Below are positions 59,501 to 62,500 of a DNA stretch of 64,000 bases, piece after piece. The stretch lies in assembly GCF_009931435.1 (NCBI RefSeq), contig NZ_CP043414.1; one strand, written 5' to 3'. Every line of letters starts with the position of its first letter. The stretch's first letter is position 1. The stretch comes from Escherichia coli. Lineage in GTDB: Bacteria; Pseudomonadota; Gammaproteobacteria; Enterobacterales; Enterobacteriaceae. A program made the position numbers.

Positions 59501-62500
59501 ATGTTTATGGCATGATGCGCGGTCGTGCGCTGGCAGGGGCAAGTGGTGACCGGGAAACGCAAATATTTTGTACGAACCTGATGGCGGAACTGGTGTCCAT
59601 CGCAGGTGAATACTGGCTGAGTGATCAAATCCCAGCAGAATTTTATGGCAAAGCAGCGCGACTACAGTTAGTCGAAAACGCTTTGACCGTTCAACCGTTA
59701 AATTGATCCCTTTTTAACAAGGAATTTCTATGGCACGCATTATTGTTGTTACTTCGGGCAAAGGGGGTGTTGGTAAGACAACCTCCAGCGCGGCCATCGC
59801 CACTGGTTTGGCCCAGAAGGGAAAGAAAACTGTCGTGATAGATTTTGATATCGGCCTGCGTAATCTCGACCTGATTATGGGTTGTGAACGCCGGGTCGTT
59901 TACGATTTCGTCAACGTCATTCAGGGCGATGCAACGCTAAATCAGGCGTTAATTAAAGATAAGCGTACTGAAAATCTCTATATTCTTCCGGCATCGCAAA
60001 CACGCGATAAAGATGCCCTTACCCGTGAAGGGGTCGCCAAAGTTCTTGATGATCTGAAAGCGATGGACTTTGAATTTATCGTTTGTGACTCCCCGGCAGG
60101 GATTGAAACCGGTGCGTTAATGGCACTCTATTTTGCAGACGAAGCCATTATTACCACCAACCCGGAAGTCTCCTCAGTACGCGACTCTGACCGTATTTTA
60201 GGCATTCTGGCGTCGAAATCACGCCGCGCAGAAAATGGCGAAGAGCCTATTAAAGAGCATCTGCTGTTAACGCGTTATAACCCAGGCCGCGTGAGCAGAG
60301 GTGACATGTTGAGCATGGAAGATGTGCTGGAGATCCTGCGCATCAAACTCGTCGGCGTGATTCCTGAGGATCAATCAGTATTGCGCGCCTCTAACCAGGG
60401 TGAACCGGTCATTCTCGACATTAACGCCGATGCGGGTAAAGCCTACGCAGATACCGTAGAACGTCTGTTGGGAGAAGAACGTCCTTTCCGCTTCATTGAA
60501 GAAGAGAAGAAAGGCTTCCTCAAACGCTTGTTCGGAGGATAAGTTATGGCATTACTCGATTTCTTTCTCTCGCGGAAGAAAAACACGGCCAACATTGCAA
60601 AAGAACGGCTGCAGATTATTGTTGCTGAACGCCGTCGCAGCGATGCAGAACCGCATTATCTGCCGCAGTTGCGTAAAGATATTCTTGAGGTCATTTGTAA
60701 ATACGTACAAATTGATCCTGAGATGGTAACCGTACAGCTTGAGCAAAAAGATGGCGATATTTCTATTCTTGAGCTGAACGTGACCTTACCGGAAGCAGAA
60801 GAGCTGAAATAAGCCCGCTGTAAAAGCGCATTTATCTTTAAGGCAGAGTCATCTCTGCCTTGAGTTTTTCATTCCTCTCATCCACGTTTAGTAAGCGCGG
60901 CGAGCATTCTTGCTGATGCGACGCATTGCTTCCCCCCCTTTACACCTTAATGCCGTTCCCCCCACACAGAACAAATTGTTTATACCTGGCTGAGTAAATA
61001 ACCTTATTGTTAGTATTGGTATGCTGGGAGATGATAACCCCGCAATTTCATTATTCATTGTTCTCCCATAGGATGAGGTTTCCCGCCGTAACTGGCGGGC
61101 TTTTTTTGCCGCAGAATTTTCCCTTTTAACATCCTGTAAACGGAAACTGCGCCGAAGCGCAGTTTAAGCGTTGATGGTCAGAACGACCAGTTCGCACCAG
61201 CCACCGCGTTCCATGGCGATTCCACACCGGCACCATGGCTATACCCCACCCCGAGATGCCCGCTTAACGAACTGCTGAATGAGGCTTTAATACCTGCCTG
61301 GTATATTCCACGTCTGCCCGACAAATCATTGACAAAATTACCGTCATTATTCACTTTCACCCGGTTATCATCGACAAATTCTTTGCGCACAGCCGCCTTC
61401 AGCCACGGCTCAACTTCCATGCCGTTCCCCAGACGCATGTTGTAACTCAGCGTTGCGCCCAGTTCACGATATATACTGCGGGTATCGACTGATTTCGATT
61501 CCATACCATTGGATAAATGATATTCGGGGTTATCAGCGGTGAACCCCGTTAACGATGCATACGGCGTCAGGTTCCAGTTACCATCGGTAAATCGCATCCC
61601 GGTTTCAATGTGACCGCCCAGCCCGTTGCTGCGATAACTGCCGTTGGCGGCTCCACCGCTGCTCATTTTACCGGCTACGTTACTTTCAAAGCGGTTCAGC
61701 TTCACGATACCGTCCAGATAGAAACCACTTTCATGTTCCCAGCTGACATAGCCCCCCAGAGAATAACTGCCCACACTGCCATGTCCTCCACGATCAAAAC
61801 CGATATGTGAATGGGAATAACCCATAAAAGCGCCCAGCGTAGCAATCCCCTCAGGAATACCATTACGGCTATCGATCCCCACCGTCATTCCGGTCAGCGT
61901 CTGCTCAAACCCGGCACCCGCATCGGTGGTGACATTATTACGGGTGTTATACGTCGTCCCCCAGACATTATTGTTGTGTGGACTCGCTTTCATTATGTTC
62001 AACCGCTCGCGAATACTGTTTAGCTCAGCATCAAAGACCAACGGTAATGTTGCTGCCATATTGAGTACGGCTGCCGTAGAAGGCGTGATGCGTTTCTCCG
62101 GGACGGGTGTCGGCGTTGGATCGGGAGTCGGGTCTGGTTTCGGATCCGGTTTTGGGTCTGGTTTTGGATCCGGTTTCGGATTTGGGTTGGGGGCCGGGTT
62201 GGGTTTGACATCATTGGTCAGGTTCCAGTTGCTGTTGCCGTCGCTTTTCAGGACATACTCATAGGTCCCAAGATCAACGAAACCGCCGGTATTACCCAGC
62301 GTAAACGAAGCATCCCCTCCCCCTGTTTTCACCAGCGTCATCGCGTCGTCAGACTGAGGGCTGACGCCGGTATCCTGAACAAAGATGTTAAAATTGCCAG
62401 TGGCGTTGTTGTTGACGACCAGTTGATCGCCCCGGGAGCCTGCAACGTTGGTATGCAGGTAGAAATTACCGCTGCCGGAAAGTTCACTGGTGGTCAGCGT

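What the first reader, a model, noticed from the sequence alone, without database searches (positions are those of the whole stretch)
60871..61110. Orphan plus-strand terminator and about 200 bp unannotated segment after minE
minE already has a strong terminator at 60839-60870, yet a second clean plus-strand hairpin with a T-tract sits at 61081-61110 with no ORF of 60 aa or more between them. That pattern suits a short independent transcript, either an sRNA or a tiny protein gene such as the 16-25 codon ORFs readable at 61021 and 60917. The convergent autotransporter has its own minus-strand hairpin at about 61143-61165.
Basis: seen in the sequence. Interest (0 to 1): 0.35.

Follow-up and report, generated by a model that had tools for sequence, protein, structure and literature searches.

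The report
Unannotated Hfq-bound small RNA after minE
The "orphan" terminator after the cell-division gene minE ends a short, strongly conserved, Escherichia-specific RNA that published interaction maps of E. coli K-12 show bound to the RNA chaperone Hfq, so it is most likely an unnamed, uncharacterised regulatory small RNA and not a tiny protein gene.

Summary
minE has its own terminator (stem 60837-60864, T5). A second plus-strand hairpin (61082-61099) with a T7 run (61101-61107) lies 215 nt downstream, and no long ORF lies between them.

The 78 nt ending at that T-run (61030-61107) are an island of near-invariance in an otherwise fast-evolving spacer. In 14 E. coli, 5 of 79 columns vary there, against 65 of 212 in the flanks (p = 5e-6). 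E. albertii keeps a 55-nt identical stretch (61042-61096) although its flanks have diverged.

The element is single-copy and always downstream of minE. It was absent from 78 other enterobacterial minE loci.

Published K-12 data support an RNA on this strand:
- "minE.ycgI.IGR" is an Hfq RIL-seq RNA, always second in its chimeras, with a U-tract of 7 and 137 chimeric fragments in stationary phase. Bar et al. 2021 listed it as a predicted sRNA.
- In a 2025 iRIL-seq dataset its 3' ends map at K-12 1223978-1223983, which is the T7 run.

The small ORFs fail. ATG 61021 is present in 5 of 101 sequences. The minus-strand ORF shows frameshifts and no coding signature.

The 5' end is unresolved (own weak promoter or Rho-gated minE read-through), and so are the targets.

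Verdict: an uncharacterised Hfq-type sRNA candidate that has already been flagged in the literature. Interest is moderate.

The parts
60837..60869 (+). minE intrinsic terminator T1 (12-bp stem at 60837-60864, then T5). It marks the upstream boundary of the segment.
   Evidence: -17.6 kcal/mol, z = -6.6.
60871..61029 (+). Fast-evolving spacer with indels. It includes a C-rich, G-poor stretch (60920-60975, 24 C and 6 G) with a length-polymorphic C-tract. A published Rho-dependent termination region in K-12 (1224064, minus strand) maps to about window 61021.
   Evidence: Variable columns 55/171 in E. coli and 106/171 when E. albertii is added. Composition. Adams et al. 2021, Supplementary file 2: Rho score 24.9.
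61007..61035 (+). Best sigma-70-like promoter candidate, TTGTTA-17 nt-GATGAT (8 of 12 matches). It predicts a start near 61042-61044. This is inferred, not shown.
   Evidence: The -10 is GATGAT in 98 of 101 sequences, the -35 is TTGTTA in 81 of 101, and the spacer between them is variable. It falls below the threshold of the standard scan, which found 0 sites.
61020..61025 (+). Alternative -10 element, TATGCT. It is TATACT in K-12 and follows the pattern TATnCT in most strains. There is no -35 match. It would predict a start near 61032.
61030..61107 (+). Conserved 78-nt element, the candidate sRNA, possibly together with its -10 element. The transcribed part is most likely about 61032/61043 to 61107, giving an RNA of about 65-76 nt.
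   Evidence: 5 of 79 columns vary in 14 E. coli, against 65 of 212 in the flanks (p = 5e-6); with E. albertii p = 2e-15. Covariance model R1 scores 114 bits here and 105 bits in E. albertii, with no other match. The K-12 sequence is identical over these 78 nt.
61043..61081 (+). Predicted single-stranded body and seed region, CAAUUUCAUUAUUCAUUGUUCUCCCAUAGGAUGAGGUUU. It contains the anti-Shine-Dalgarno-like CAUUGUUCUCCCA (61056-61068) and a UUU immediately 5' of the terminator stem.
   Evidence: The fold of 61033-61080 is no better than shuffles (-3.7 kcal/mol, z = +0.97). In the unbiased 15-sequence set it is invariant apart from one singleton. Two seed polymorphisms were seen in the larger samples.
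61082..61107 (+). Intrinsic terminator T2: a 6-bp GC stem at 61082-61099, C at 61100 and U7 at 61101-61107. This is the mapped 3' end of the Hfq-bound RNA.
   Evidence: The iRIL-seq RNA2 ends at K-12 1223978-1223983 (minus strand) equal the T-run. The U-tract length of 7 recorded for minE.ycgI.IGR matches T2 (U7) and not T1 (U5).
60888..61058 (-). Minus-strand ORF preceded by GGGAG: 56 aa in this window, 36 aa in K-12, annotated as hypothetical in a few genomes. Judged not to be a gene. Its Shine-Dalgarno sequence and ATG are simply the complement of the sRNA's anti-RBS seed.
61144..61165 (-). Terminator of the convergent AIDA/EhaD-type autotransporter. This is context and is not part of the sRNA.

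Best explanation
The second terminator is the 3' end of a short non-coding RNA of about 65-76 nt, running from roughly 61032/61043 to 61107 on the plus strand. This RNA binds Hfq and most likely acts as a trans-acting, base-pairing regulatory sRNA, expressed mainly on entry into stationary phase.

Shown:
- The hairpin and U7 tail are present.
- A 78-nt island of purifying selection ends at the U-tail.
- The locus is single-copy, syntenic and restricted to E. coli and E. albertii among the loci searched.
- For the K-12 orthologue, whose 78 nt are identical, published data show an Hfq-associated RNA on this strand. Its 3' ends fall in the U-run, and it is always the 3' partner in chimeras.

Inferred:
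- The unstructured, invariant body carries the seed, including CAUUGUUCUCCCA, which is complementary to a Shine-Dalgarno sequence plus AUG.
- It pairs with ribosome-binding regions of target mRNAs on Hfq and represses their translation.
- The U7 tail, the stem and the preceding UUU form the Hfq-binding module.

Biogenesis is open. Either the RNA has its own weak promoter (TTGTTA-17-GATGAT, or TATnCT), or it is cut from transcripts that read through the minE terminator. In the second case its production would be limited by Rho-dependent termination in the C-rich spacer.
For: Anatomy.

Conservation: the 15-sequence alignment shows near-invariance of 61030-61107 between variable flanks. E. albertii keeps 55 identical nucleotides (61042-61096) with diverged flanks. 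Among 51 distinct 310-nt contexts there were only 14 core haplotypes.

Distribution: the segment is present in 5410 of 5426 complete E. coli genomes, at one copy per genome (median). All 83 metagenome hits and all the fetched genome loci that carry it and have enough upstream DNA lie downstream of minE. There were no matches in viral contigs. The covariance model found no match in 78 other enterobacterial minE loci.

Literature, read here:
- Bar et al. 2021 (PMC8175672), Supplementary Table 1. minE.ycgI.IGR has 12 chimeric fragments and 1 interaction in exponential phase. In stationary phase it has 137 fragments, 5 interactions, SIC 0.8 (second in every chimera) and U-tract 7. Its sRNA score is 0.276, next to RybB (0.292) and Spot42 (0.228), and its status is 'Predicted here'.
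- bioRxiv 2025 (PMC12262471), iRIL-seq. minE.ycgI.IGR is RNA2 with ends at 1223978-1223983 (minus strand) and has about 412 other chimeric reads. The known sRNAs visible in the same passages also have RNA2 coordinates at their 3' ends.

The body is predicted to be unstructured. No Rfam family explains it.
Against: - No 3' end at this site appears in the curated Term-seq list of Adams et al. 2021 (LB OD 0.4 and 2.0, and M63), and only 18 DirectRNA-seq reads fall in the 800 nt downstream of K-12 1224064 in untreated exponential cells. The RNA is therefore scarce under standard conditions.
- No promoter reached the scan threshold.
- No northern blot, transcription start site or validated target was found. 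The one mRNA partner I could read, the tktA 5' UTR with 7 chimeras, pairs only modestly: -21.3 kcal/mol, matched by 3.4% of target shuffles and 12% of seed shuffles.
- There is no covariation to test, because the stem is almost invariant, and the one common stem variant (G to A at 61095) weakens the stem without compensation.
- Two polymorphisms fall inside the proposed seed.
- The Hfq data are for K-12, not for the strain of the window.
Confidence: 0.72

Rival explanations
1. The hairpin is a tandem backup terminator that stops minCDE read-through before it collides with the convergent autotransporter gene. On this view the Hfq-bound species is a functionless 3' fragment, because Hfq binds many terminator U-tails.
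For: T2 lies on the same strand, 215 nt after T1. A Rho-dependent termination region lies between them, so read-through transcripts do exist. Abundance is low under standard conditions. iRIL-seq favours RNAs with a 5' monophosphate, meaning processed RNAs.
Against: A terminator needs only the stem and the T-run. Here the roughly 50 nt upstream of the stem are as invariant as the stem, even in E. albertii, where the minE terminator and the spacer are quite different. The RNA is second in every chimera with 5 distinct partners, and it scores alongside bona fide sRNAs.
Confidence: 0.15
2. The functional product is a small protein of about 36 aa on the minus strand. It would start at ATG 61058, preceded by GGGAG at 61063-61067; K-12 encodes MNNEIAGLSSPSISILTIRLFTQPGINILFCAWEQP. 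The plus-strand RNA could then be its antisense partner, as in a type I toxin-antitoxin pair.
For: There is a Shine-Dalgarno-like sequence with good spacing. The 36-aa form is the commonest, and about 88 of 101 sampled sequences keep the frame for 31 codons, as does E. albertii. A few genomes annotate it, for example UTI89_C1358 and ECABU_c14370. Synonymous changes are slightly more frequent than expected: 17 of 47 against an expected fraction of 0.24, p = 0.06.
Against: About 11 of 101 sequences carry early frameshifts; the Ec55 type stops at codon 15. C-termini differ by frame, and predicted lengths range from 15 to more than 68 aa in the sampled sequences (database predictions 36-98 aa). 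Nonsynonymous changes outnumber synonymous ones 30 to 17, and changes fall 15/12/20 across the three codon positions, so there is no third-position periodicity. Codons 1-7 are invariant at all three positions, which points to an RNA or DNA constraint and not a coding one. The peptide is not a clean hydrophobic helix like known type I toxins. RefSeq's K-12 annotation has no gene there, and neither do most other gene calls. No promoter or published transcript on that strand was found.
Confidence: 0.07
3. A plus-strand micro-ORF is the product: either the 16 codons from ATG 61021, or the 32 codons from ATG 61031 that run through the terminator.
For: Both ORFs are readable in the window. ATG 61031 is invariant.
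Against: ATG 61021 is present in only 5 of 101 sequences and is ATA in K-12. ATG 61031 directly abuts the only purine-rich motif, leaving no spacer, and that motif varies (GGGAG, GGGGG, GGGTG, GCGTA). That ORF would have to be translated through the terminator stem, and it is invariant at all codon positions. It also lies at or upstream of the likely 5' end.
Confidence: 0.02

Closest known systems
Hfq-dependent intergenic sRNAs of E. coli with Rho-independent terminators (for example RybB, MicA, CyaR, SdsR)
   Same: It is about 65-80 nt long, with an unstructured conserved 5' or central seed, a GC-rich terminator stem preceded by U's and followed by at least 7 U, recovery on Hfq, and the 3' position in RIL-seq chimeras. 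Chimera counts are higher in stationary phase, as for SdsR (the comparison with SdsR rests on my own knowledge).
   Different: There is no sequence or covariance-model match to any Rfam family. Its range is much narrower (E. coli and E. albertii only). It has low abundance, no validated target, no mapped start site and no recognised regulator. It has no name in EcoCyc or RefSeq.
sRNAs derived from 3' UTRs or operon ends (CpxQ, SdhX, MalH, FliX, and the FadZ/AllZ candidates from the same Bar et al. 2021 screen)
   Same: It lies directly downstream of an operon on the same strand and shares the operon-distal terminator architecture. It comes from the same RIL-seq candidate list, several of whose members were later confirmed by northern blot. 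It is captured by iRIL-seq, which favours ends with a 5' monophosphate.
   Different: A strong intrinsic terminator (T1) and a Rho termination region separate it from the minE stop codon. It is therefore not a simple 3' UTR, and any production from minCDE transcripts would require read-through of both.
Type I toxin-antitoxin loci and dual-strand small-gene loci (for example ibs/Sib, tisB/IstR)
   Same: A short ORF with a good Shine-Dalgarno sequence lies exactly antisense to a small terminator-ended RNA.
   Different: The ORF is not conserved as a protein and is frameshifted in about a tenth of sequences. The locus is single-copy. The Rfam istR hit is noise, covering only the autotransporter terminator hairpin at 16 bits against a threshold of 45.

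Membership tests
Hfq-dependent trans-acting sRNA | Rho-independent terminator: a GC-rich stem-loop followed by a U-tail of about 6-7 or more | tested here: met
   A 6-bp stem with 6 GC pairs at 61082-61099, followed by U7. 72 of 101 sampled sequences carry this exact stem with T7 and 20 carry the G61095A stem variant with T8-T9; shorter T-runs (T5-T6) occur in about 5.
Hfq-dependent trans-acting sRNA | Physical association with Hfq in vivo | tested here: met
   This rests on published data for the K-12 orthologue, which has the identical 78 nt, and not on this strain. RIL-seq data are; iRIL-seq Hfq-IP data are.
Hfq-dependent trans-acting sRNA | Behaves as the sRNA partner in interactome data: second in chimeras, several partners, 3' end at the terminator | tested here: met
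   SIC 0.8 with k = 5 means S = 1.0. The RNA2 ends at 1223978-83 equal the U-run.
Hfq-dependent trans-acting sRNA | Conserved, accessible seed region | tested here: met
   61043-61081 is almost invariant and is predicted to be unstructured. Two single-base seed variants exist.
Hfq-dependent trans-acting sRNA | Defined 5' end, from its own promoter or from a processing site | tested here: inconclusive
   Only an 8-of-12 promoter candidate was found. Transcription start site datasets could not be reached. The 5'-monophosphate bias of iRIL-seq hints at processing.
Hfq-dependent trans-acting sRNA | Seed-dependent regulation of at least one target mRNA | not testable with these tools
   The only lead is 7 chimeras with the tktA 5' UTR, and the predicted pairing is weak.
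Any described RNA family (Rfam 15) | Covariance-model score at or above the family's gathering threshold | tested here: not met
   The best overlapping hit is anti-hemB at 12.9 bits against a threshold of 49.5, E = 4.7. All 7 hits are far below threshold.
3' UTR-derived (processed) sRNA | Co-transcription with the upstream gene and endonucleolytic release | tested here: inconclusive
   Transcription on this strand past T1, limited by Rho, is documented. No RNase E site or 5'-end data were available.
Small protein gene | An ORF maintained in frame, with a coding substitution pattern | tested here: not met
Type I toxin-antitoxin | A conserved small hydrophobic toxin ORF overlapped by or paired with an antisense RNA | tested here: not met
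   The ORF is not conserved and is frameshifted in about 11% of sequences.

The most novel reading that the evidence does not exclude
The RNA is a Rho-gated read-through product of the cell-division operon. Transcripts that escape the minE terminator would normally be killed by Rho in the C-rich spacer. When Rho termination weakens, for example under stress or in stationary phase, they would reach T2 and be trimmed to an Hfq-bound sRNA that represses central-metabolism mRNAs such as tktA. That would couple division-operon transcription and Rho activity to metabolism. A further unexcluded twist is that the antisense 36-aa ORF is also expressed, making the locus bifunctional.
Probability: 0.12. 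Interest if true: 0.6.

Novelty: new member of a known kind. Interest (0 to 1): 0.4.

Why it matters
E. coli K-12 is the best-annotated bacterium, yet this locus has no gene in RefSeq or EcoCyc-derived naming and no Rfam family. If confirmed, it adds a young sRNA, limited to E. coli and E. albertii, to the Hfq network. It sits beside the minCDE division operon and an autotransporter island, and it offers a clean case for studying how new sRNAs arise. One possible arrangement, an intrinsic terminator, a Rho site and an sRNA in series, is unusual. The gain is incremental, however. The kind of element is well known, and the candidate was already listed, untested, in the supplementary table of a 2021 screen.

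Tried and rejected
- Rfam scan of 60500-61400 at E up to 10: only sub-threshold noise.
- Plasmid copies: the 13 hits are large non-mobilisable records, three of them over 4.7 Mb, and look like chromosome pieces filed as plasmids, so they are not paralogues. No hits in viral contigs.
- Small-protein readings. The minus-strand ORF was searched against 5.8 billion proteins. Only 17 E. coli/Shigella predictions came back, with mixed frames and lengths. The population test shows frameshifts and no coding pattern. The plus-strand ATG at 61021 is absent from 96 of 101 sequences.
- Type I toxin-antitoxin idea: dropped for the same reason.
- A conserved 5' stem (GGGAGA at 61026-31 pairing with UCUCCC at 61062-67, seen in the fold of 61000-61107): rejected, because the 5' arm varies without compensation.
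- Covariation analysis of the terminator: not informative, because the stem is nearly invariant.
- Homologues near minE in 78 other Enterobacteriaceae, including Salmonella, Citrobacter, Klebsiella, Enterobacter and cryptic Escherichia clades: none by blastn or by covariance model.
- Target prediction: only the tktA 5' UTR could be tested, and the pairing is weak. A genome-wide search was not possible with the sequence available.
- Literature. The main text of the held library never mentions the locus. Two other interactome papers had no entry for it. The supplementary tables of Melamed 2016 are not held, so the five stationary-phase partners remain unknown to me.
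Full report
**Where we are.** The window carries minC, minD and minE on the plus strand; minE is at 60546-60812. A convergent AIDA/EhaD-type autotransporter ends at 61178 on the minus strand. The 365-bp gap between them corresponds to the minE-ycgI intergenic region of E. coli K-12 (NC_000913.3 1223908-1224278). There the autotransporter has decayed to the ycgI pseudogene, and nothing is annotated in the gap. The window's plus strand is K-12's minus strand, and window 61107 corresponds to K-12 1223978.

**The observation.**
- The minE terminator is a 12-bp stem at 60837-60864 followed by T5. Its fold is far better than shuffles (z = -6.6).
- A second plus-strand hairpin, CCCGCC-GTAACT-GGCGGG at 61082-61099, is followed by C and T7. 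Its complement has no T-tail, so it terminates only plus-strand transcription.
- The autotransporter has its own minus-strand hairpin at 61144-61165.
- No ORF of 60 aa or more lies between the two plus-strand terminators.
- Taken alone, the second hairpin is not statistically remarkable (z = -1.5). Comparison with other genomes and published data are what make it meaningful.

**Conservation.** The intergenic region is present in 5410 of 5426 complete E. coli genomes, at one copy per genome (median). Its identity to the window is only 88-98%, which I judge low for E. coli from general knowledge; no core-gene baseline was measured here.
- I aligned the window, 13 E. coli chosen across that identity range, and E. 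albertii. The variation is very uneven.
- The 159 nt after the minE terminator are full of substitutions and indels. In E. coli 55 of 171 columns vary. The 35 nt after the T-run vary as well.
- In contrast, 61030-61107 has 5 variable columns of 79 (Fisher p = 5e-6; with E. albertii p = 2e-15).
- E. albertii has a different minE terminator and a largely unalignable spacer. It still keeps GCAATTTCATTATTCATTGTTCTCCCATAGGATGAGGTTTCCCGCCGTAACTGGC (55 nt, 61042-61096) without a single change, followed by a T-run.
- The conserved unit is therefore a 78-nt block that ends exactly at the terminator's T-run, and not just a hairpin.
- The stem itself offers no covariation, because it hardly varies. The one frequent variant, G to A at 61095 in B2-type strains, weakens it and comes with a longer T-run.

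**Distribution.**
- A scan of metagenome contigs for the core found 83 contigs. Every one with enough upstream sequence has minE just upstream.
- No viral contig has the core.
- The apparent plasmid hits are large non-mobilisable records, three of them over 4.7 Mb, and look like chromosome pieces.
- MinE-anchored loci from 80 other species show no trace of the element by blastn or by a covariance model built from ten haplotypes, with two exceptions: E. albertii, and a truncated Escherichia contig that matches only the minE-proximal spacer.
- In three Escherichia lineages (L005, L007, L009), minE is followed by unrelated sequence and then ymgD. They have neither the autotransporter nor the element, so the two travel together.

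**Published experiments on the K-12 orthologue.** The K-12 sequence is identical to the window over all 78 nt.
- Bar et al. 2021 (PMC8175672) re-analysed the Hfq RIL-seq data of Melamed et al. 2016 and list "minE.ycgI.IGR".
  - Exponential phase: 12 chimeric fragments and 1 partner.
  - Stationary phase: 137 fragments, 5 partners, and a second-in-chimera score of 0.8, which with five partners means it was second in every chimera.
  - The longest nearby U-tract is 7.
  - The sRNA score is 0.276, ranked between RybB (0.292) and Spot42 (0.228).
  - The summary status is "Predicted here", meaning it was not tested by northern blot.
  - A U-tract of 7 fits the second terminator (T7) and not the minE terminator (T5).
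- A 2025 preprint (PMC12262471) reports iRIL-seq on K-12 at OD 1.0, using in-vivo ligation followed by Hfq immunoprecipitation.
  - minE.ycgI.IGR appears as RNA2 in chimeras with the tktA 5' UTR (7 reads) and with tRNA-Val (6 reads), and has about 412 further chimeric reads.
  - The RNA2 coordinates are 1223978-1223980 and 1223978-1223983 on the minus strand. By my mapping, K-12 1223978-1223984 is the T7 run.
  - In the same tables the RNA2 coordinates of RyhB and ArcZ sit at their known 3' ends, as judged against gene coordinates I recall from memory.
- Strand, 3' end and Hfq association therefore all agree with the sequence-based prediction.
- That the preprint still uses the placeholder name shows that the locus had no gene name in 2025. 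I found no main-text mention in the library.

**Evidence pointing the other way.**
- Adams et al. 2021 (PMC7815308) list no curated Term-seq 3' end at this position in LB OD 0.4, LB OD 2.0 or M63.
- Their DirectRNA-seq finds only 18 reads in the 800 nt downstream of K-12 1224064 (minus strand) in untreated cells, against 230 upstream. The RNA is scarce in growing cells.
- The same table reports 1224064 as an "orphan" Rho-termination region with a Rho score of 24.9. After bicyclomycin there are 293 reads upstream and 571 downstream.
- That coordinate maps to about window 61021, right at the 5' edge of the conserved block. It lies just after a C-rich, G-poor stretch (60920-60975, 24 C and 6 G) that looks like a Rho loading site.

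**What it is not.**
- The minus-strand ORF starts at ATG 61058 behind GGGAG. It is 56 aa here and 36 aa in K-12, and a few genomes annotate it.
  - Among 101 sampled sequences, most keep a 36-aa form. About 11 have early frameshifts.
  - C-termini switch frame, and lengths run from 15 to more than 68 aa.
  - Distinct substitutions are 17 synonymous and 30 nonsynonymous. The expected synonymous fraction is 0.24, giving p = 0.06.
  - The substitutions are spread 15/12/20 over the three codon positions.
  - The first seven codons are invariant at all three positions.
  - This is not the signature of a protein under selection. The simplest reading is that the "Shine-Dalgarno plus ATG" is the mirror image of an anti-ribosome-binding-site seed, CAUUGUUCUCCCA, on the plus-strand RNA.
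The ORF at 60916 lies in the indel-rich spacer.

**Likely mechanism.**
- The RNA body upstream of the terminator (61043-61081) is predicted to be unstructured and is essentially invariant.
- It is followed by UUU, a GC stem and U7. From general knowledge of Hfq-dependent sRNAs, this is the standard layout: the seed lies upstream and the Hfq-binding module is at the 3' end.
- I therefore infer a trans-acting, Hfq-dependent base-pairing sRNA that occludes ribosome-binding sites and is expressed mainly towards stationary phase.
- Targets are unknown to me. tktA is a weak lead: few chimeras with a very abundant partner, and a predicted duplex of -21.3 kcal/mol that 3-12% of shuffles match.

**Biogenesis is open.**
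- For an own promoter:
  - The best candidate, TTGTTA-17-GATGAT at 61007-61035, matches only 8 of 12 positions and is missed by the standard scan.
  - Its hexamers are conserved (98 of 101 and 81 of 101) while the spacer between them varies freely.
  - E. albertii keeps this block although everything further upstream differs.
  - After bicyclomycin there are more reads downstream than upstream.
- For read-through and processing:
  - The promoter match is weak.
  - Rho-limited transcription on this strand between T1 and the element is documented.
  - The RNA is captured as RNA2 in iRIL-seq, which according to its authors disfavours 5'-triphosphate primary transcripts.
- I rate the two routes as roughly even.

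**Comparison and verdict.** In how it probably works, the element resembles the classical Hfq-dependent intergenic sRNAs and the operon-end sRNAs found by the same RIL-seq screen. It matches no described RNA family and is confined to E. coli and E. albertii among the loci searched. It meets the structural, Hfq-binding and chimera-position criteria of the class. Its 5' end is undetermined, and target regulation cannot be tested here. This is a new, uncharacterised member of a well-known kind that a 2021 supplementary table had already flagged as a candidate. Interest is moderate.

Noticed in passing
window ~61375-61390 (+), antisense to the 3' part of the autotransporter ORF: In K-12 RIL-seq (PMC12262471, file 9), 'ycgI.AS' at 1223696-1223709 (minus strand) forms 43 chimeras with the sRNA ArcZ. 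This is the same strand as the candidate sRNA, about 270 nt beyond its terminator. So there is Hfq-bound antisense RNA over the autotransporter's 3' end, possibly read-through of T2.
   Followed up: no
window ~60610-60785 (+), inside minE: The minE coding region (K-12 1224305-1224478) forms 36 RIL-seq chimeras with the iron-stress sRNA RyhB in the same dataset. This suggests possible RyhB regulation of minE.
   Followed up: no
window ~63467-63478 (-): The autotransporter here lacks 43 bp relative to the intact 1558-aa gene of strain R32_14_1F (99.5% identical elsewhere). This splits it into ORFs 61178-63409 and 63403-63978. It is probably a pseudogene, or a collapse in the assembly.
   Followed up: partly
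window 60875-60884 and 61071-61078 (+): CCUCUCAUCC, just after the minE terminator, is complementary to GGAUGAGG, just before the second terminator. In a read-through transcript the two would close a loop of about 190 nt (MFE fold). The upstream arm is specific to E. coli and absent from E. albertii. It may be chance, or it may be a processing signal.
   Followed up: no
window 60932-60965 (+): There is a length-polymorphic poly-C tract: C7 in this window, and ATTTCCACCTCCCCC in K-12-type strains. A second C-run lies nearby. This is the main source of indels in the spacer, and it sits in the stretch where Rho-dependent termination was mapped.
   Followed up: partly
L005, L007 and L009 (Escherichia cryptic lineages, E. 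whittamii), positions 4265-4800: In these genomes minE is followed by a different hairpin and an AT-rich stretch, and then directly by ymgD. The autotransporter, ymgJ/ymgI and the sRNA element are all missing. The whole block is therefore an insertion in, or a deletion from, the E. coli/E. albertii lineage.
   Followed up: partly
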